In this document: piece by piece, positions 18,145 to 47,402 of the stretch
Position numbering within the stretch: the stretch's first letter is position 1
Layout: each line of letters starts with the position of its first letter
IMG/VR virus record: IMGVR_UViG_3300021255_000109
Coordinates: 32,001 to 96,000 of that record
Source: a virus
Lineage: Duplodnaviria; Caudoviricetes
Length of the DNA: 64,000 bases
Reading direction: 5' to 3' (one strand)
Translations under genes and position numbers: made by a program
The notes under the pieces: model-generated
Databases searched by the model: none
Told to the model about the DNA's origin: nothing
Seen by the model: only the letters and a program-made list of their open reading frames with translations

Positions 18145-19518
18145 TCAATTGCTTTCGGTAGTGTCATTGTTTACCTCTTCTGCTTCTTCGATATCAGGAG
18201 CTTCAGCGTCAGCCTTAGCGATACCTTCAAGGCATTTAAAACTAAAGTTCTTATGCTTGTAAGCAGTAAACTTTGGTTTATTTACGATACGAATGACTAC
18301 GCCTTCGCGCACATGACTTAATCCGATAGGGTCGGGCCCATCATAATAGCGCTCAGCAATCATACGAACATATTCTCCATAAGACATATCTGTGGTTTCG
18401 CCGGTTTCAAGGTTAATACTTACGGGTTTATTCTTTTCAGTGATATAACCCTGCCAGAAAACTGGTACATACTGACATCCAATCTGCTCGCAACGATAGC
18501 GCATATAATCAGGAGTATATTCTACGATATCTCCATCTTCATTAGTCATAGTCATACGGTAAACATAAAACTTAGACTGGCCAGGCTCGCACCCATAAGA
18601 GAAAGTTGTAGTTTTGCCATATTTCTTTATAAACTCTTTATCTTTTGTCTTTGAGTTATCTACAGACCCCATAATTGGAGTACCAGTATCGGTAAATCCA
18701 ACTACTTCATAGTAAACCTCTTCACCTTTATGAAGCTTTCCTTTGAAGAAGTCTGCGTGCGGCTGGCGGAAATGATTAGACCCATAGAAACCAGATTTGA
18801 AGTCGTTCAGTACAGTTCTACGAGTACCAGTCACATAGCCCCAATCATAGATAGGAGTTCCTTCTTTTCTGGTAATTCTATCCCAAAGAGTTCTTTTATA
18901 TCCCTGGAATACTGGCAGGTATCCAGTACGCTGAGAAGTTCCGTGCATTTTCAAAGTGATTTCAATTAAATCACCCGCTTTGAAAGCATCCAGATTGTAA
19001 GCAAGCTGCTCAGTATCAGCGTGCTCAACAAACAGAGGCGCCAGTGGCACCTTGCGCTTTCTTACGCGATTTCCCTCTTTACTATTGCCAGCAACTTTAA
19101 CTGGTTTCATTGGAATGTACTTACGACAAATTTCGTGGCCATTGATAACAGTAATAGCTTCACCCGGAGTAAAAGACCCAGCACTATCTCCAAGGTAGTT
19201 AAAGCAAGAGATAGGAAGATATAATCCATCAGATTTCTCGCCACGGAGTTTAATTGTAGTTACATTTCTCTTATCAGGGTCCATATAACCACCAATATTA
19301 GCGCCATTCTCATCTTTCTTTCTTACCAGATTATTAGCCTCACAGAATTCTGTAGAAAGCTGCAGGTCAGTTGGAAAATAGATACCGATGTCTCCTACCG
19401 CAACATCCAAAGAAACACAAGTATCATTACCAAAAAAAGTAGCAATCTGAAGCTTATCTGCATTAGAATGCGGGCGAAGATGTTCAACTTTTACAATATA
19501 TCCACAATGCTCACTCAT
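18145..19518 (-). CDS. RNA ligase (Rnl2/DRB0094-like)
   Basis: N-terminal PHSNADKL OB-like domain, LRGEKSDG, KMHGTS, YYEVVG, REGVV, KHK. Confidence 0.85.
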   Translation of the reverse strand: MSEHCGYIVKVEHLRPHSNADKLQIATFFGNDTCVSLDVAVGDIGIYFPTDLQLSTEFCEANNLVRKKDENGANIGGYMDPDKRNVTTIKLRGEKSDGLYLPISCFNYLGDSAGSFTPGEAITVINGHEICRKYIPMKPVKVAGNSKEGNRVRKRKVPLAPLFVEHADTEQLAYNLDAFKAGDLIEITLKMHGTSQRTGYLPVFQGYKRTLWDRITRKEGTPIYDWGYVTGTRRTVLNDFKSGFYGSNHFRQPHADFFKGKLHKGEEVYYEVVGFTDTGTPIMGSVDNSKTKDKEFIKKYGKTTTFSYGCEPGQSKFYVYRMTMTNEDGDIVEYTPDYMRYRCEQIGCQYVPVFWQGYITEKNKPVSINLETGETTDMSYGEYVRMIAERYYDGPDPIGLSHVREGVVIRIVNKPKFTAYKHKNFSFKCLEGIAKADAEAPDIEEAEEVNNDTTESN

Positions 19519-25020: not shown

Positions 25021-26577
25021 TCACTTAATGCAAGCGTAACGCTCAGTATTAAGCTTATCCATCATGAGTTCATATCCGGTCTTACCAGACATGATGGTCT
25101 CAAAGATAGAAGGAGAGAAGCCAGATACGAAGCTTACACGGCCCTGTCCGAGCATCGGAATGTTATTCTGGCGAGCATCAACATTCCAGAAAATCAGATG
25201 AGGCAGTTCAAGTCCGTAACGTGCCCACTTCTTAGCGATACCCTCCATCACAGTCTCGCAGTTGCGAGAATTGATGCTAGAAGTATAACGCCAACCAGAA
25301 GTTGCAGAGTCGAACTCCATATCAGAGATGATAAGGACATTCTTCGGGATATCTTCCTTCTTTACACCAGGACGAGTTGCAGTATCAAGTAGAAGGTCGA
25401 AGGTTGCTTCGATATTAGTGTTCTCACACAGATTAGTGCGATAAATTCTTTCGACCTTATCACAGAAATCTACTCCCTCAGTACGGATGAGCTGAGGACG
25501 AGAAGAGAAACTAATATAGTTATTGGCGAACGGGCCATTGTTATGCTCTGCGCAATACAGACCCAGAGAAATTGCTACGTTGATAGGAGCAGAAGCGCTA
25601 TCACCAGTCATAGAACCAGAGGTATCTACAACAGCAATACCATTGAAAGTTGCATTATTGAAATAATCGGTCAGATTATCCCAATACTTGTTAACCATCA
25701 GACGATTGGTATCGTACAGGTCAACATTGCTCTTATTATAATCATTAAAGCTATACCAACTTCTGTACTGCGGTTTCATGACCTTTACAGCCTCAGCTAC
25801 GCACTCATAAGGATACAGCGCCTTAGCGTTTACCTTAGTAGTGGCGTCCTGTGCGAACTCAGCGTAAGTCTTTACATTTTCGTTCTTCTGGCGCTCAATG
25901 TCATGACGAGCAAAAGCGTTCTTGTAAATCATTCCAGCACGAGAAGGAATCTTATCGAACTCAATCTCGTCCCAGCGATTCTCAGACATTAGTCTCTCCA
26001 GAACGTTGATGCGGGCGCGCAGATTAGAAAGAATCTTTCTATACTGGCGAGAAGTCATGCCCATATGCTGGCGAGTCAGTGCTCCCAGTCTGCGGCTTTC
26101 AGCACTTGAAGTGTTCTCGGACTTCAACCACTTAGCAAGTAAAGACGGAGTCTTGCAGCTGACATCAAGTGCAAGCTGATGAGTCATCAGCGCGAATGCG
26201 TCACCTTCCAGCGGAGTCCCTACGAACTCATACAAGTCATCCCAACGACCAAACTCAGGTACATGGATGAGATTGCGCTTTGCAGCATCTGCGTCCGCAT
26301 TAGCAAGCCAATGCATACACACACGGAAGAATCTACGCTCTCCCTGGCCTCCACGCACATCACGGATATAGAACAGGCACTTTAGTGCATACTCCGGGTT
26401 TTCCGCATATGCGTTCTTAAAGAGGTTAATTACATCTGCGTCACTGCGATTACGATAAGCTGCGCCCATCGCAAACATATCCAGTAAATCAGAACGAGTA
26501 GTCTTATGGGTCACACCACCATTCTCAGTGAGAGTGAAGTTAGTAGCATCATTCAGACCGGACATAAAAGTATTCAT
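25021..26577 (-). CDS. DUF2828-family helical + vWA protein (Ro60/TROVE-like architecture)
   Basis: TENG, RDVRGGQGERRFF, GRWDDL, AKWLKSE, vWA DTSGSM, SDMEFD, FWNV, SGFS. Confidence 0.85.
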   Translation of the reverse strand: MNTFMSGLNDATNFTLTENGGVTHKTTRSDLLDMFAMGAAYRNRSDADVINLFKNAYAENPEYALKCLFYIRDVRGGQGERRFFRVCMHWLANADADAAKRNLIHVPEFGRWDDLYEFVGTPLEGDAFALMTHQLALDVSCKTPSLLAKWLKSENTSSAESRRLGALTRQHMGMTSRQYRKILSNLRARINVLERLMSENRWDEIEFDKIPSRAGMIYKNAFARHDIERQKNENVKTYAEFAQDATTKVNAKALYPYECVAEAVKVMKPQYRSWYSFNDYNKSNVDLYDTNRLMVNKYWDNLTDYFNNATFNGIAVVDTSGSMTGDSASAPINVAISLGLYCAEHNNGPFANNYISFSSRPQLIRTEGVDFCDKVERIYRTNLCENTNIEATFDLLLDTATRPGVKKEDIPKNVLIISDMEFDSATSGWRYTSSINSRNCETVMEGIAKKWARYGLELPHLIFWNVDARQNNIPMLGQGRVSFVSGFSPSIFETIMSGKTGYELMMDKLNTERYACIK

Positions 26578-28714: not shown

Positions 28715-28854
28715 ATGTTTTGAAACAATGTTCTGAACAAGCTCGTCTACAGTCTTACCGAAAATAGCTTTACAACAAACATCAACTAATGAATTTTTTA
28801 TTCTATTTACTTTTCTTTAAATAAATACCCATTCATTTCCATTATTTTTCTCCT

Positions 28855-28961
28855 CAAGACGGCTTTTTAGTGCTGGAATCGAACCAGCTTAGATTGTTTT
28901 ACAGACAATGTGCGAACCATACGCTTAATATTCTAAAAAGAATGATTGCTGTATCCGCCTT
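28855..28961 (-). ncRNA. Element E2 enclosing a degenerate tRNA-Tyr(GTA)-like module
   Basis: AAGGCGG-ATACAGCAA ... ATTGT-CTGTAAA-ACAAT ... GCTGG-TTCGATT-CCAGC ... CCGTCTTG. Confidence 0.7.
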
Positions 28962-29228
28962 TCTTTATCTTACATATATATTATATCAAAATTTTTATAA
29001 AAAATCAATTAAAAATCGTCATAATTACTATTTTGTAACTTTTGTTTTTCTTTACGCTTTTGTCTATCTTTCTGTTCAATATTAGATTCTTTGCATAAAT
29101 GGCAATTGCCGCAATTTCTTCTATTATGACAAAACCAACAATAATCATTATCCCAAAAGAACCATTTGGGAGGACTAGGCAATGGTTTTCTTTCACTTTT
29201 ACCCATCTTCAAAGCTCCTTTTATACAG

Positions 29229-29316
29229 CGGGGGTATTGGGATTCGAACCCAAACCGAGGCCCTCAGAAGGCTGGAGTTTTAGAGACTCCTGTGCTGACC
29301 GTTACACTATACCCCT
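29229..29316 (-). tRNA. Amber suppressor tRNA (anticodon CTA), probably Gln
   Basis: GGAGT-CTCTAAA-ACTCC; A1/C72 mismatch, G2-C71, G3-C70, G73; ~20-nt variable region. Confidence 0.9.
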
Positions 29317-30506: not shown

Positions 30507-30707
30507 TTAATTATAACATTCTTTTGTGAAAAAACAATACATAACGTCTACATTATATTTATTTTTTGCTAAAATTGCATTAACTAATTTATATCCTTGC
30601 TCACCCATTTGAGTTAAAGTATTAGGTAAAACATCTGTTGCATAGTTACTGATTACTACAACTGTATTATCATATATTACTTCTTTTTTATTCATGAATT
30701 TCCTCAT
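30507..30707 (-). CDS. Small hypothetical protein
   Basis: L..MG.QGY.LV....Y.FF.K pattern. Confidence 0.55.
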   Translation of the reverse strand: MRKFMNKKEVIYDNTVVVISNYATDVLPNTLTQMGEQGYKLVNAILAKNKYNVDVMYCFFTKECYN

Positions 30708-30709
30708 AG

Positions 30710-31008
30710 TGGACCTGAGGGGAGTCGAACCCCTGTCCGAAATTTATACTTACTATAATTGTTTACGCTGTTTTTTTAAATTTGCTCCACCATCTTATTT
30801 TTAGTGCTAAGAATAAGAAAACTTAAAGTGACAGTTGTTTTCGATCCTCAACAGTTACTACTGACATCTTACTGTGTTTTGGAGGCTGAGCCAAATCAGG
30901 CTGCCATTTGATATTGATATCTTGCGTTTATATTTAGATTTTAGTGATTACGTCACTACACGAGCGCAATTATAATTTTCTAAACCCCGTCGAAACCATT
31001 ACAAGCCC
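30710..31008 (-). ncRNA. ssrA: tmRNA
   Basis: 5' GGGCTTGTAATGGTTTCGACGGGG, 3' GACAGGGGTTCGACTCCCCTCAGGTCCA; resume ATAAAC-GCA; tag (A)ARYQYQMAA-TGA. Confidence 0.9.
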
Positions 31009-31674: not shown

Positions 31675-31691
31675 ATGTAACATAAAAAAAT

Positions 31692-32312
31692 GAATTTGAA
31701 AAAATGTGTGAACCTTCGCTCTACATCCTATATTTCTCGTTTATTAGACTACTGAGGAGATAAGTCTGAGCCTAAGACCCGTCGGTCTTAAACTTCTTAC
31801 CCCACCCGTTTTCCACGGGCACAGGTTCTGCACCTTTAATCTCAGAAGGGATTGCTTACCCTCAACTTTCACCCACCATTCAGATATTTTTATAATAATG
31901 ACCTCAACATTATTCATTCATTATAAATAGAAATTAAAAAGTCTTTGCCTTGGGCTACTTGTGCGTTGACCTTGTCTTATAGTCTTATTACTAAGACATC
32001 ATGGCAAACTTCCTTATTAGCATTTCCTTGGTTTGTGCCAGGCGGCCAGCCTAACACCTAACAAGGATTATTCTCCCACTGGGAGCGTCTATTGCGGAAG
32101 CGACAAGACACCGTCCTAACTTGAGAAATATATTTTGCGCTAACTACCCCCGACACCTTACGTTCGTAAGGTATCATTCTCTTGTCACCAAGAGAATGAT
32201 TCATCTTCATCCTGGCTATCGTCAGGGTAGATATAGTCGACACCTAAGTGTGGTAGTTACCTCAGCACAATGGTATTTGCTCTGCACTGAGTTACACATT
32301 TTTTCAAAGTTC
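31692..32312 (-). ncRNA. Large structured ncRNA, ROOL-like (~620 nt)
   Basis: Terminal pairing TTTGAAAAAATGTGT/ACACATTTTTTCAAA, many hairpins, segments CAAGTAGCCCAA, ATCTGAATGGTGGGTGAAAG, GCTCAGACTTATCTCC recalled as ROOL-like; tRNA-cluster context. Confidence 0.65.
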
Positions 32313-32530
32313 AATAGGAATCAGTCAAAATCAGCATCGCCACGAGAAGGCTTCCTATATGATGCCATGCGGTTTTGAGGTTAACCGTAAACCTTGATAG
32401 TGTGGCTCTCGCCCAAAGGAATACCCGGCCGCCGCACTCCACTCTTTGAATGATGAACTCTTCTAATCCTACATCCTATCATATGTCTATTGGACTTACA
32501 TACAATTTCTAACTGTAAAGCCGAGACAAA

Positions 32531-32603
32531 CAGCCCCGGACAGAATCGAACTGTCACATTGCGGGTCAAAGCCGCATGCGCTCAACCATTACGCTACGGA
32601 GCT
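32531..32603 (-). tRNA. tRNA-Gln(TTG)
   Basis: Cloverleaf; loop CTTTGAC; G73. Confidence 0.88.
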
Positions 32604-32611
32604 ATCTATTT

Positions 32612-32734
32612 CAAGGCTGCTTACTTTTTGGAGTTATTAATCTTCCAATTGATTTACAATTGCTAAGCAAAAGACAGGACTCGAACCTGCAACGCATAAC
32701 TTGGAATAAAGCTACTATTTGCTGTCACAGCCTT
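32612..32734 (-). ncRNA. Element E3: YrlA-topology permuted tRNA mimic
   Basis: AAGGCTG-TGACAGCAA ... GTTAT, T-arm GCAGG-TTCGAGT-CCTGT, looped acceptor, D-arm AATC-AATTGGAA-GATT, ATAAC ... CAGCCTTG. Confidence 0.72.
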
Positions 32735-32765
32735 AAATATATTATAATGTTTAATTAGTTTTCAA

Positions 32766-32887
32766 CAAGACACTTTAGAAAAATGATTATCAGTCATTCG
32801 CGTCAACCATTGCGCCAATTTGCCTAAGGTGGCAAATATCGGATTTGAACCGATACTCTCTAAAAAGAGATTTGCTGTATGTGTCTT
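32766..32887 (-). ncRNA. Element E4: circularly permuted tRNA-Ile(GAT)-like module
   Basis: AAGACAC-ATACAGCAA ... T-arm, ATTTGCC-ACCTTA-GGCAAAT, D-arm, AATGA-CTGATAA-TCATT ... GTGTCTTG. Confidence 0.78.
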
Positions 32888-32893
32888 TTTTAT

Positions 32894-33268
32894 TTATTCT
32901 TGAATACAATACTTTCTTACAAAATGACCATAAGACATACGATTACACATCTTATTTAACTCCTCAGTAGAATACTGACCTGCTACTAATTCATCAACAA
33001 GCGCCCAATAACAATCGACGTCGTCTCTATAGACGTCATCGTACATCTCTTCAATCTCATCTTCAGTCATATCGTCGTCGATATATTCTTTTGCCTCTTC
33101 ATCTAAAGCATTATAAATCTCAGCATAAGACTGAATAACATCAAAGGCTAAGCTAATAGCATTCTCTCTGGCTTCCTCTTCGTTGTCTGCATCAATTACT
33201 TCCATCTCATACATACCGTGTAAACCACCATACATCTGGTCACAGCCATAAACTACATATCTAGCCAT
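32894..33268 (-). CDS. Acidic hypothetical protein
   Basis: ORF behind promoter; YGGLHG motif. Confidence 0.65.
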   Translation of the reverse strand: MARYVVYGCDQMYGGLHGMYEMEVIDADNEEEARENAISLAFDVIQSYAEIYNALDEEAKEYIDDDMTEDEIEEMYDDVYRDDVDCYWALVDELVAGQYSTEELNKMCNRMSYGHFVRKYCIQE

Positions 33269-33438: not shown

Positions 33439-33995
33439 TAGGAGAGATGGGAATCGAACCCATGACCTCAGGTTTGATTCCAAGATGTTATTCATTAATT
33501 ATTTTATTCACCACCTTTTCTAATTCATATTCAGTAGCAAATGTAATTCCTCTAATTTGTCCATTCTTAGGCGGAATAAATCTTAATCTTTTTATCCCAG
33601 AACTACAACATTCATCTACTGGAATTAAATAAGTTTTACCTTCATAAGAAGTCATAAAATAATCAATTTGTTCTTTTGTATAGGCATGTTTTACAAACTT
33701 TCCATTTCTCGTAGTTTTATTTGCGGTATTAAATTCTATATATCCGTTGTCTATATGTGAAGTATTAGCTGTTTTAACTTGAATTTTATAAAATTTATTA
33801 TTTATTTCAACTACGAAATCATAACGTTCACAATCTCCATATGGAGTTAAAACATTATAACCTAATTTTAAAAATGATAACATACATTCTACTTCTGTAA
33901 TATTACCTTTTTGTTTTGACATTAACATATTGTTAATAATCAATGAATAATTCTTTGAATCAGACCTGCACTCTAACCTTCTGAGCTACTCTCCT
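33439..33995 (-). tRNA. tRNA-Ile(GAT) split by a 483-nt insertion (exons 33959-33995 and 33439-33475)
   Basis: 5' half ends CAGGT-CT-GAT, 3' half begins AA-ACCTG; perfect acceptor AGGAGAG/CTCTCCT, A73. Confidence 0.85.
33488..33928 (-). CDS. PD-(D/E)XK homing-type endonuclease (I-Ssp6803I-like family) inside tRNA-Ile
   Basis: KG..TE, P.GD..RYD, KIQVKT, Y...IDYF, YLIP. Confidence 0.85.
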   Translation of the reverse strand: MLMSKQKGNITEVECMLSFLKLGYNVLTPYGDCERYDFVVEINNKFYKIQVKTANTSHIDNGYIEFNTANKTTRNGKFVKHAYTKEQIDYFMTSYEGKTYLIPVDECCSSGIKRLRFIPPKNGQIRGITFATEYELEKVVNKIINE

Positions 33996-34006
33996 ATATT
34001 TATATC

Positions 34007-34087
34007 CAAGGCACTTAAAGTGAGCACATTTGTATAAGTAAAAGTTATATAATTTGCATCCTTGTAAATATTTGCTGTATGTGCCTT
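34007..34087 (-). ncRNA. Element E5
   Basis: AAGGCAC-ATACAGCAA ... GTGCCTTG directly after a promoter. Confidence 0.65.
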
Positions 34088-34272: not shown

Positions 34273-34391
34273 TGGGGGACAGAGGACTCGAACCTCCAAA
34301 CACCGGCTCCCTAAGCTTTGTAAAAATTGCTGACACGGTTTTTATTCAAGACCAGACATAACGGCGGCTTTTCCTATTTGCCTAATCCCCC
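34273..34391 (-). ncRNA. Element E6: tRNA-like RNA with the permuted stem/CAGCAA motif in place of the anticodon loop
   Basis: Acceptor GGGGGA/TCCCCC, D- and T-arms intact; anticodon arm holds GGTCTTG-AATA-AAAACC-GTGTCAGCAA. Confidence 0.7.
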
Positions 34392-38504: not shown

Positions 38505-38627
38505 CAAGTCGCTTCGTTTTTTGGTGTACAAAATGGGACTCGAACCCACAATTTTTAAATCCTAAATTTAACGCCATTCCTATTTGGCTATTCGTACGAT
38601 TAACGTAACATTTGCTGTATGCGACTT
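38505..38627 (-). ncRNA. Element E7 enclosing a complete tRNA-Leu(TAG)-like gene with CCA (38522-38597)
   Basis: AAGTCGC-ATACAGCAA ... cloverleaf with TTAAA-TTTAGGA-TTTAA ... ACCA ... GCGACTTG. Confidence 0.75.
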
Positions 38628-38925: not shown

Positions 38926-38991
38926 CAAGACGAATTATAACAAGTTTTGTTTACCGACACAAATTGTTTTAAAAATTGCAGAAATCGTCTT
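38926..38991 (-). ncRNA. Element E8
   Basis: AAGACGA-TTTCTGCAA ... TCGTCTTG directly after a promoter. Confidence 0.55.
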
Positions 38992-39753: not shown

Positions 39754-39819
39754 CAAGACATTTTAGTTTTTCCCAAATTGGATGGCTGAGATAACAAACT
39801 TGTTTGCTGCAAATGTCTT
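39754..39819 (-). ncRNA. Element E9
   Basis: AAGACAT-TTGCAGCAA ... ATGTCTTG directly after a promoter. Confidence 0.6.
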
Positions 39820-40310: not shown

Positions 40311-40365
40311 AAATTGACCTACCCTGGTACGCATTGTTAAGAGGCGTGATAGGTACTGATATAAT

Positions 40366-40512
40366 CTAGACACGTAGTTCCTTTTTTTAACGCTATTGCG
40401 CACATCTTTTCAAATTAGAACTATTAAACGTCGATGCTATTTTACAGGGACACGTCCCTATATTCTTCTATCCTAATCTTGAGTTAAAATAGAATTGCTG
40501 TGCCCGTGTCTA
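40366..40512 (-). ncRNA. Element E10
   Basis: TAGACACG-GGCACAGCAA ... CGTGTCTAG. Confidence 0.55.
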
Positions 40513-47314: not shown

Positions 47315-47402
47315 CAAGACGCCGACCTGATTTGTTTCTTTTATTCAGGATTTAATTAATTAATTAATTTTGGCGAAACTAGTAATTGCCGTACAGCGTC
47401 TC
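47315..47402 (-). ncRNA. Element E12
   Basis: GAGACGC-TGTACGGCAA ... GCGTCTTG directly after a promoter. Confidence 0.5.

What the first reader, a model, noticed from the sequence alone, without database searches (positions are those of the whole stretch)
32766..32887. E4: circularly permuted tRNA-Ile(GAT) that keeps an intact anticodon arm
Order: T-arm ATCGG-TTCAAAT-CCGAT, perfect 7-bp acceptor ATTTGCC/GGCAAAT closed by the loop ACCTTA (starting A73-C-C), D-arm, anticodon arm AATGA-CTGATAA-TCATT. The molecule is opened at the variable loop, where the handle stem attaches. YrlA lacks an anticodon; this RNA would display one but could not be charged unless cut and re-ligated. Inference: an anticodon-nuclease decoy, or a two-piece/permuted tRNA matured by RNase P and the phage ligase.
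Basis: partly seen in the sequence, partly recalled or inferred. Interest (0 to 1): 0.82.

Follow-up and report, generated by a model that had tools for sequence, protein, structure and literature searches.

The report
Sealed, back-to-front tRNA mimic with anticodon
A 181-kb phage encodes a conserved small RNA that is a complete tRNA written in permuted order, with its amino-acid end sealed by a loop and its two ends held in a "handle" shared by partner RNAs of a Ro60-like protein. It is most likely a non-decoding tRNA look-alike that displays a real anticodon loop, not a working isoleucine tRNA.

Summary
On the minus strand, 32887-32766 reads: handle, small hairpin, T arm, 7-bp acceptor closed by ACCUUA, D arm, anticodon arm (CUGAUAA), handle.

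It is selected structure, not chance. I found 16 distinct homologues in related phages. In the 14 that were aligned, 99.5% of cells pair and 20 of 32 pairs show compensatory change. All 7 acceptor pairs and 4 of 5 anticodon-stem pairs covary.

The handle (AAGAC../..GUCUUG plus ACAGCAA) marks a large RNA family. That family travels with a DUF2828 protein whose predicted fold matches Ro60. This scan has met the handle family before on other DNA.

E4 is a rare subtype (about 80 bits or more with my model; other handle RNAs score 62 or less). It opens at the variable loop and keeps a full anticodon arm.

Four points argue against a working tRNA-Ile:
- the anticodon switches among homologues (GAU, UAA, GUU, GUA);
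- the discriminator base is free to vary;
- CCA is not conserved;
- normal tRNAs with the same anticodon co-exist.

Best reading: a Y-RNA-like sealed tRNA mimic, probably bait for an anticodon-loop-binding factor. RNase P opening, as shown for M. smegmatis YrlA, stays possible. Expression and binding are untested.

The parts
32881..32887 (-). Handle, 5' strand AAGACAC
   Evidence: Pairs with 32767-32773. The AAGAC/GUCUU part is invariant and the two inner pairs covary in 14 homologues (helix 1). The same handle occurs at 8 or more other sites in the window.
32871..32880 (-). One-sided bulge AUACAGCAAA (family signature CAGCAA box)
   Evidence: CAGC and the AA that follows are invariant in A4 (one row, L173, has one A fewer). 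The box is shared by all handle RNAs in this phage and in relatives.
32857..32870 (-). Small hairpin UCUCU-UUUU-AGAGA between handle and T arm
   Evidence: Recovered by the MFE fold. 4 of its 5 pairs show compensatory change (helix 2).
32838..32855 (-). U48-equivalent plus T arm AUCGG-UUCAAAU-CCGAT(U)
   Evidence: Canonical GGUUCRAnUCC T loop. 100% paired with 2 covarying pairs (helix 3). U before the stem and A15 are both invariant.
32818..32837 (-). Acceptor stem, 7 bp (AUUUGCC/GGCAAAU), sealed by loop ACCUUA (32830-32825)
   Evidence: All 7 pairs covary and 100% are paired (helix 4). Loops in homologues are 3-6 nt and CCA is not conserved.
32799..32817 (-). U8 G9, D arm (GCG(C)-AAUGGUUGA-CGC) and G26
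   Evidence: Aligned to the Rfam tRNA model. G18 G19 are conserved and helix 5 is 100% paired.
32782..32798 (-). Anticodon arm AAUGA-CUGAUAA-UCAUU, anticodon GAU at 32789-32791
   Evidence: 4 of 5 stem pairs covary (helix 6). The loop is always C-U-NNN-A-A, while NNN is GAU, UAA, GUU or GUA among homologues.
32774..32781 (-). Single-stranded U/A-rich tail linking the anticodon stem to the handle
   Evidence: Variable in length (8-16 nt) and in sequence among homologues.
32766..32773 (-). Handle, 3' strand GUGUCUU plus conserved G
25021..26577 (-). Gene for the presumed protein partner: DUF2828 + DUF7788, predicted Ro60-like ring with vWA domain
   Evidence: Pfam E 5.6e-31 and 3.4e-39. The AlphaFold model has Ro60/TROVE structures as its top Foldseek hits. 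It lies 6.2 kb downstream on the same strand.
32612..32734 (-). Neighbouring sibling RNA (E3): same handle, YrlA topology, no anticodon arm
   Evidence: Weak Rfam YrlA match, 26.4 bits, E 0.0036. Handle AAGGCUG/CAGCCUU.

Best explanation
E4 is a Y-RNA-like small RNA, not a decoding tRNA. It belongs to a large, unnamed family of phage and bacterial RNAs that share two features: a terminal 'handle' helix (AAGAC../..GUCUUG) and an adjacent single-stranded CAGCAA box. By inference, this handle is the docking site for the phage's Ro60-like DUF2828 protein.

Within that family E4 is a rare subtype. Its cargo is a whole L-shaped tRNA body comprising T arm, 7-bp acceptor, D arm and a canonical 7-nt anticodon loop. 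The handle emerges where a class II tRNA carries its long variable arm, and a short loop seals the acceptor end.

As made, the RNA cannot be aminoacylated. The most likely role (inferred) is bait or adaptor. It presents a genuine anticodon stem-loop plus tRNA elbow to a factor that reads anticodon loops, while tethered to the Ro-like protein. A host anticodon nuclease is the leading candidate, and a tRNA-modifying enzyme is the alternative. The target specificity would be re-set by changing the anticodon.

What is shown: the structure, its conservation, the family link and the co-occurrence with the Ro-like gene. What is inferred: protein binding, expression and the bait role.
For: Structure and selection:
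- The MFE fold recovers all helices, z = -3.3.
- In 14 aligned homologues, 99.5% of cells pair, 20 of 32 pairs are compensatory, and 0 of 500 shuffles reach this. Sliding the partners drops pairing to about 40%.

Family link:
- The handle with covarying stems occurs at 8 or more other sites in this window.
- About 460 distinct modules were found in related phages.

Protein link:
- The DUF2828 protein model hits Ro60 structures over its full length (9kop, 9l5y, 1yvr, 2nvo; E 9e-6 to 1e-4; TM about 0.5).
- 5 of 5 phage records found by the RNA pattern alone carry DUF2828.
- In the Succinimonas amylolytica chromosome, which was also found by an RNA pattern, two handle RNAs lie about 400 nt and 1.1 kb upstream of a DUF2828 gene.

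Against decoding:
- The anticodon differs among homologues on one scaffold. E4 (GAU) and L127 (UAA) have identical D arms.
- The discriminator is A, G or C among GAU copies.
- Acceptor loops are 3-6 nt and have no conserved CCA.
- L181 has a 6-nt anticodon loop.
- Canonical tRNAs with the same anticodon co-exist in L127, L137 and L160.

Precedent: YrlA Y RNAs are sealed, permuted tRNA mimics bound by Ro60 (Chen 2014; Wang 2018).
Against: - No transcript, end-mapping, binding or processing data exist.
- The Ro-like gene is 6.2 kb away, not adjacent, and all the phage carriers may belong to one lineage. The phage co-occurrence is therefore partly phylogenetic.
- The exact 7-bp acceptor, A73 and ACC in E4's loop are what a substrate for RNase P and the CCA-adding enzyme would need.
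- Many bacterial tRNA genes also lack an encoded CCA, so its non-conservation does not exclude maturation.
- No anticodon nuclease or other target is identified.
- The E4-type anticodons (GAU, UAA, GUU, GUA) do not match one known nuclease specificity.
Confidence: 0.62

Rival explanations
1. Two-piece working tRNA. RNase P cuts 5' of G+1 in the acceptor loop, the trailer is trimmed and CCA is completed. The two pieces stay together through the handle and the acceptor helix. The RNA is then charged and decodes, with the handle playing the part of a long variable arm.
For: - The acceptor is a perfect 7 bp stacked on a 5-bp T stem, with A73-C-C at the start of the loop.
- M. smegmatis YrlA, which has a 7-bp acceptor, is cut by RNase P and given CCA in vivo.
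- All tRNA core positions are present, and ARAGORN accepts the re-permuted sequence.
- The phage's only normal tRNA-Ile(GAU) gene is interrupted by a 483-nt insert.
Against: - The discriminator is unconstrained (A/G/C) among GAU homologues.
- The anticodon identity switches on the same body. E4's D arm scored closest to tRNA-Leu and was not among the top matches for tRNA-Ile.
- Loops as short as 3-4 nt occur.
- Canonical isoacceptors co-exist in relatives.
- Sibling RNAs with the same handle cannot decode at all.
- About 45 nt of extra RNA at the variable position, perhaps bound to a protein, is unlikely to fit a ribosome (inference).
Confidence: 0.12
2. True permuted tRNA gene matured through a circular intermediate, as in the red alga Cyanidioschyzon merolae. 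The ends in the handle are joined by an RNA ligase, and the circle is then opened at the acceptor to give a normal-order tRNA with a long variable arm.
For: - The 3' half lies before the 5' half.
- The two ends are brought together by a conserved helix.
- The phage has an RNA-ligase-like ORF at 18145-19518, but its Pfam scores are below the cut-off.
Against: - The handle is a 7-bp helix with a 10-nt one-sided bulge, not a bulge-helix-bulge motif.
- No splicing endonuclease was seen among the ORFs scanned.
- The same handle encloses cargo that could never become a tRNA.
- The arguments about tRNA identity listed under rival 1 apply here too.
Confidence: 0.05
3. Decaying tRNA debris or a tRNA-derived mobile element (handle strands as terminal inverted repeats) with no RNA-level function.
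For: - It lies in a dense tRNA array with many rearranged tRNA pieces.
- The Rfam tRNA model can join E4's 5' half to the next element's T arm at 27.2 bits.
Against: - Compensatory changes occur in every helix across 14 homologues, while loop signatures stay fixed.
- There is a single copy per genome.
- No flanking direct repeats are visible.
Confidence: 0.04

Closest known systems
YrlA Y RNAs of bacteria and mycobacteriophages (Rfam RF02553; Chen et al. 2014, PMC4201824; Wang et al. 2018, 10.1101/312249)
   Same: - A terminal helix joins the 5' and 3' ends.
- The order is T arm, loop-closed acceptor, D arm.
- tRNA tertiary positions are kept (U8, A15-U48, G18 G19, T loop).
- It is encoded in the same genome as a Ro60-type protein.
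- M. smegmatis YrlA also has a 7-bp acceptor.
   Different: - YrlA has no anticodon loop, and its Ro-binding helix continues the anticodon stem. E4 keeps a full anticodon arm, and its handle leaves from the variable-loop position.
- The box is ACAGCAA, not GNCGAA.
- The protein is DUF2828, which does not match Pfam TROVE.
- E4 gives no RF02553 match.
D. radiodurans Yrn1 (Chen et al. 2014)
   Same: It is a Y RNA that can be drawn with an anticodon-like arm of 5 bp.
   Different: In Yrn1 that loop has 6 nt, the order of arms differs and the D arm is doubtful. E4 has a canonical C-U-NNN-A-A loop and a sealed acceptor.
Permuted tRNA genes of Cyanidioschyzon merolae and relatives (from my own knowledge; reviewed in PMC4090602, listed but not read)
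   Same: The 3' half is encoded upstream of the 5' half, and the acceptor ends are joined by a short intervening sequence.
   Different: Those genes are eukaryotic or archaeal and are processed at bulge-helix-bulge motifs by the splicing endonuclease to give working tRNAs. E4 has no such motif and carries family evidence against a fixed amino-acid identity.
CAGCAA-handle RNAs beside DUF2828 genes (unnamed; seen earlier in this scan) and Class I RNAs of Dictyostelia (PMC7919456)
   Same: - A short end-to-end stem whose sequence covaries, followed at once by a conserved unpaired box, then variable cargo.
- The conserved positions the paper gives for its 11-nt motif fit ..ACAGCAA. The motif letters themselves come from my memory.
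   Different: - Most handle RNAs carry a YrlA-type core, a normal-order tRNA or a bare anticodon hairpin. Only about 16 distinct sequences found here have E4's layout.
- Class I RNAs are 42-65 nt, eukaryotic and have no tRNA-like cargo. A link to DUF2828 there was not tested.

Membership tests
YrlA / bacterial Y RNA (RF02553) | Reaches the Rfam gathering score (69 bits) | tested here: not met
   E4 gives no YrlA match even at E up to 10. The neighbouring E3 scores 26.4 bits.
YrlA / bacterial Y RNA (RF02553) | Terminal helix pairing the 5' and 3' ends, with T arm, closed acceptor and D arm inside | tested here: met
YrlA / bacterial Y RNA (RF02553) | Conserved GNCGAAN0-1G Ro-binding motif in the helix | tested here: not met
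   The box is AUACAGCAAA. The motif definition is from Chen 2014.
YrlA / bacterial Y RNA (RF02553) | No anticodon loop; the Ro-binding helix extends the anticodon stem | tested here: not met
   E4 has a 5-bp stem and a 7-nt loop, and the handle leaves at the variable loop.
YrlA / bacterial Y RNA (RF02553) | Encoded next to, and bound by, a Ro60 (TROVE) protein | tested here: inconclusive
   There is no Pfam TROVE hit in the genome. A DUF2828 protein with a Ro60-like predicted fold lies 6.2 kb away. Binding is not testable here.
Canonical tRNA | Cloverleaf helices and conserved core nucleotides | tested here: met
   ARAGORN calls tRNA-Ile(gat) after in-silico re-permutation. The Rfam tRNA model aligns the 5' half.
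Canonical tRNA | Free 5' end at +1 and free 3' N73-CCA end in a contiguous 5'-to-3' gene | tested here: not met
   The acceptor is closed by ACCUUA. ARAGORN and Rfam at gathering score call nothing here.
Canonical tRNA | Stable amino-acid identity set (anticodon with discriminator) among orthologues | tested here: not met
   Anticodons are GAU, UAA, GUU and GUA. The discriminator is A, G or C among GAU copies.
Permuted tRNA genes (C. merolae type) | 3' half upstream of the 5' half | tested here: met
Permuted tRNA genes (C. merolae type) | Bulge-helix-bulge motif at the precursor ends, with circular intermediate and mature tRNA | tested here: not met
   The ends form a 7-bp helix with a single 10-nt bulge on one side. 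Whether a circular intermediate or a mature tRNA is made cannot be tested with these tools.
CAGCAA-handle RNAs linked to DUF2828 (unnamed family) | AAG-stem / CAGCAA box / cargo / stem-CUUG, with the stem covarying | tested here: met
CAGCAA-handle RNAs linked to DUF2828 (unnamed family) | A DUF2828 gene in the same genome | tested here: met

The most novel reading that the evidence does not exclude
E4-type RNAs are programmable anticodon baits. Each is a sealed, Ro-like-protein-tethered copy of a whole tRNA whose anticodon is swapped (GAU, UAA, GUU, GUA) to match whichever host tRNA-cleaving defence the phage meets. In a bolder form, E4 is opened by RNase P into a two-piece, CCA-tailed tRNA whose variable arm is a protein handle. 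Either would be a new way for a virus to use the tRNA shape.
Probability: 0.3. Interest if true: 0.85.

Novelty: new variant of a known kind. Interest (0 to 1): 0.66.

Why it matters
Bacterial Y RNAs are known to mimic the tRNA body, but nobody knows which factor the mimic is meant to meet. The known ones lack an anticodon loop.

E4 and its 15 homologues show that a branch of this RNA world keeps a complete, canonical anticodon loop and changes the anticodon between related phages. That points to an anticodon-reading partner and gives a direct handle on the question. One can pull down what binds the E4 anticodon arm, or test whether anticodon nucleases cut it.

It also extends the Ro/Y-RNA idea to DUF2828, a protein family with no Pfam TROVE match and no function given in any paper my searches found. 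DUF2828 is found in phages and bacteria, and papers list it in plants.

Finally, it offers a natural example of a tRNA permuted at the variable arm, which is of interest for tRNA engineering.

Tried and rejected
- **blastn in INPHARED phages.** A search with 32600-32920 found nothing.
- **Neighbouring ORF.** A protein-based search with the upstream 124-aa ORF found no relatives.
- **Loose handle pattern.** The 14-base handle pattern in IMG/VR gave mostly chance hits and had to be filtered by stem closure. My first in-genome scan for the handle was too permissive.
- **PDB sequence search.** A sequence profile of the DUF2828 protein against PDB sequences gave nothing meaningful. Only the fold search showed Ro60.
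- **Rfam.** No family matched the short handle RNAs.
- **Split tRNA reading.** The Rfam tRNA hit of 27.2 bits joins E4's 5' half to E3's T arm across an 88-nt insert. I considered it as a split or intron-bearing tRNA and rejected it. E4's own acceptor pairing is perfect and covaries at 7 of 7 pairs, and in L074/L177 and L120/L173 E4-type copies are followed by other sequence.
- **tRNA-Leu origin.** The evidence that E4 descends from a class II tRNA-Leu is weak. Its D arm is closest to Leu, but only 14 of 20 against 13 for Thr. I keep it as a lead only.
- **T-box idea.** I considered that E4 is an uncharged-tRNA mimic acting on T-box leaders. I set it aside because the NCCA needed for antitermination is not conserved.
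- **Promoter scan.** It gave no more sites than shuffles.
- **Literature.** Searches found no description of this RNA or of DUF2828 function.

Full report
**Setting**

The window is bases 32001-96000 of a complete 180,778-bp IMG/VR phage record with direct terminal repeats. Its minus strand carries the following:
- 33 tRNA genes and a tmRNA (34 ARAGORN calls in all);
- a ROOL RNA at 341 bits;
- a Ro60-like DUF2828/DUF7788 gene;
- a PhoH-PIN gene;
- a weak RNA-ligase-like ORF;
- a PD-(D/E)XK endonuclease ORF (the last four).

No Pfam TROVE domain is present in the genome.

**The observation**

Read on the minus strand, 32887-32766 has these elements in order:
- handle strand AAGACAC;
- unpaired AUACAGCAAA;
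- a small hairpin;
- U;
- T arm AUCGG-UUCAAAU-CCGAU;
- acceptor strand AUUUGCC;
- loop ACCUUA;
- acceptor strand GGCAAAU;
- U8 G9;
- a D arm with G18 G19;
- G26;
- anticodon arm AAUGA-CUGAUAA-UCAUU;
- an 8-nt tail;
- handle strand GUGUCUU followed by G.

RNAfold recovers all six helices unaided, with z = -3.3 and no shuffle folding as well. ARAGORN and Rfam at gathering score see nothing here, as expected for a permuted gene. At a loose threshold, Rfam's tRNA model aligns the 5' half and borrows the T arm of the next element at 27.2 bits. That next element (E3, 32734-32612) weakly matches YrlA at 26.4 bits.

**Homologues and selection**

A pattern built from the box, the T loop and the anticodon loop found true relatives in IMG/VR. 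I built covariance model R1 from four of them. I then searched 80 loci fetched around relatives of the DUF2828 gene. E4-type RNAs score 82-159 bits and all other handle RNAs score 62 or less.

With L043 and a contig binned into an Oscillospiraceae MAG (L210), there are 16 distinct E4-type sequences. The genome itself has only one.

On the 14-sequence alignment A4:
- 99.5% of cells form standard pairs;
- 20 of 32 pairs show changes on both sides;
- no shuffle out of 500 reaches the observed values;
- sliding the 3' partners by 1-3 columns drops pairing to 37-47%;
- all seven acceptor pairs covary;
- four of five anticodon-stem pairs covary.

One caution applies. A4 was aligned to the model, which leans towards its structure. 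However, the raw sequences fold the same way on their own. After cutting the acceptor loop and joining at the variable loop in silico, ARAGORN calls a tRNA in all 14. "Circularly permuted complete tRNA" is therefore an accurate structural description.

**What varies and what does not**

The anticodon loop is C-U-NNN-A-A in 15 of the 16 sequences; L181 has lost one base. NNN differs among homologues:
- GAU in most;
- UAA in L127, L137 and L159;
- GUU in L175;
- GUA in L043.

The closest relative by its Ro-like protein is L127, at 76% identity. It has a D arm identical to E4's but the anticodon UAA.

The base after the acceptor 3' strand is A, G or C among GAU copies. L177 and L179 differ at only two positions, one of which is this base. 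The sealing loops are ACCUUA, GCUUA, ACUUA, CAUU, CGUU, ACUA, ACUG, GUGU, GUGC, ACA, ACUUU, GAGU and, in L043, GCCCUUA, so E4's ACC is not a conserved CCA.

Normal tRNAs with the same anticodon co-exist with the E4-type RNA in L127, L137 and L160, within the part of their arrays I could see. E4's D arm scored closest to tRNA-Leu, and tRNA-Ile was not among its top five matches, but only weakly so.

Together these facts argue that the RNA is selected to look like a tRNA and to show an anticodon loop. They argue against selection to carry isoleucine.

**The handle and its likely protein**

The strands AAGAC../..GUCUUG with the CAGCAA box recur at 32613-32734, 34008-34087, 38506-38627 (enclosing tRNA-Leu), 38927-38991, 39755-39819, 40367-40512, 47317-47401 and 28850-28965. 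The stems differ in sequence but stay paired.

Across related phages I counted about 460 distinct modules by a simple rule. About 40 would be expected by chance, by my own estimate. Their cargo falls into four kinds:
- YrlA-type cores;
- normal-order tRNAs;
- bare anticodon hairpins, with UUU the commonest anticodon;
- the rare E4 type.

The DUF2828 protein gave no sequence match to solved structures. Its AlphaFold model has mean pLDDT 73. That model has Ro60 structures as its eleven best Foldseek matches over the full length, including the Thermus phage phiLo Ro60. That phage Ro60 binds two phage Y-like RNAs (PMC12135203).

Five of five phage records found through the RNA pattern alone encode DUF2828. 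An RNA-only pattern scan of bacterial genomes also turned up the Succinimonas amylolytica chromosome. There, two handle RNAs lie about 400 nt and 1.1 kb upstream of a DUF2828/DUF7788 gene.

This mirrors the yrlA-rsr arrangement and is the best evidence that handle and protein work together. Binding itself is inferred.

Earlier notes of this scan report the same handle-protein pairing on other genomes. I used them as leads and re-derived the points above from my own calls.

**Mechanism**

Established knowledge:
- YrlA RNAs fold as L-shaped tRNA mimics with closed acceptor stems and no anticodon loop.
- Their effector is unknown.
- M. smegmatis YrlA, with a 7-bp acceptor, is cut by RNase P and then receives CCA.

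E4 shares the sealed acceptor and the terminal helix. It differs in keeping the anticodon arm and in placing the helix at the variable-arm position, so the whole tRNA outline remains exposed.

I commit to this reading. E4 is a non-decoding tRNA mimic docked on the Ro-like protein. Its anticodon arm is bait for a factor that reads anticodon loops. Anticodon switching between phages would reflect a change of target. I give about 0.6 to the class assignment and about 0.3 to the bait role specifically.

A two-piece chargeable tRNA (about 0.12) and a circular-intermediate permuted tRNA (about 0.05) are not excluded. Debris or a mobile element is nearly excluded by the covariation.

**Novelty**

I found no paper describing this RNA, the handle family, or a function for DUF2828. 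The kind, a Y-RNA-like tRNA mimic, is known. The layout is not: a complete tRNA, permuted at the variable loop, with a canonical and switchable anticodon. I therefore class it as a new variant of a known kind.

Noticed in passing
window 33440-34000 (-): A tRNA-Ile(GAU) gene is split after anticodon position 36 by an insert of about 483 nt. The insert is almost filled by a PD-(D/E)XK endonuclease ORF (33488-33943, PF11645, E 5.6e-29). Both exons look intact: acceptor AGGAGAG/CUCUCCU and anticodon stem CAGGU/ACCUG. The closest relative, L127, has an ARAGORN-called tRNA-Ile(gat).
   Followed up: partly
window 32612-32734 (-): The sibling RNA E3 lies directly after E4. It has the same handle and a YrlA-type core without an anticodon arm. 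Its acceptor hairpin (UUUUGC-UUA-GCAAUU) resembles E4's, and Rfam's tRNA model can join E4's 5' half to E3's T arm at 27.2 bits. This chain of half-tRNAs recalls the dimeric-pre-tRNA origin proposed for YrlA.
   Followed up: partly
window 34008-34087, 38927-38991, 39755-39819 (-); L012, L069, L073, L081: Short handle RNAs of about 50-80 nt occur. In the relatives L012, L069, L073 and L081 the only recognisable cargo is a 5-bp/7-nt anticodon-like hairpin, most often with anticodon UUU (Lys), and also GAA and UAA. I saw such a hairpin in the window's own copy at 34008-34087, but not in 38927-38991 or 39755-39819.
   Followed up: partly
window 28850-28965 (-): A handle RNA whose cargo is in normal tRNA order (D arm, GUA anticodon arm, T arm). 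The handle replaces the acceptor stem, and the box is followed by the same small U-loop hairpin as in E4.
   Followed up: no
window 29228-29316 (-): A tRNA with anticodon CUA (amber suppressor; ARAGORN labels it Pyl) and a long variable arm. The same kind of tRNA is present in most related loci. The phage group may read TAG as a sense codon late in infection.
   Followed up: no
window 30707-31008 and 31691-32315 (-): A phage-encoded tmRNA (tag ARYQYQMAA) lies next to a full-length ROOL RNA (341 bits). Both sit inside the tRNA array, less than 2 kb from E4.
   Followed up: no
window 40317-40353 (-): An abiF RNA motif match just above the gathering score (39.1 against 37 bits), directly after tRNA-Asn.
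   Followed up: no
L229:5396-7998 (Succinimonas amylolytica DSM 2873 chromosome): Two YrlA-topology handle RNAs lie immediately upstream of a DUF2828/DUF7788 gene. They are preceded by an ORF with a WCX domain (WYL-type regulator). This is a cellular, cultured-organism instance of the system.
   Followed up: partly
handle box, all copies: The stem plus unpaired ..ACAGCAA box resembles the architecture described for Class I RNAs of dictyostelid amoebae: a 6-bp end-to-end stem plus an 11-nt motif with conserved T3, C6, C9, A10 and A11 (PMC7919456). The motif letters themselves come from my memory, not from the retrieved text.
   Followed up: partly
window 34273-34391 (-): A tRNA-like gene with good acceptor, D and T arms has an anticodon region that holds GGUCUUG...CAGCAA, that is, handle pieces in reversed order. 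I could not parse it with confidence.
   Followed up: no
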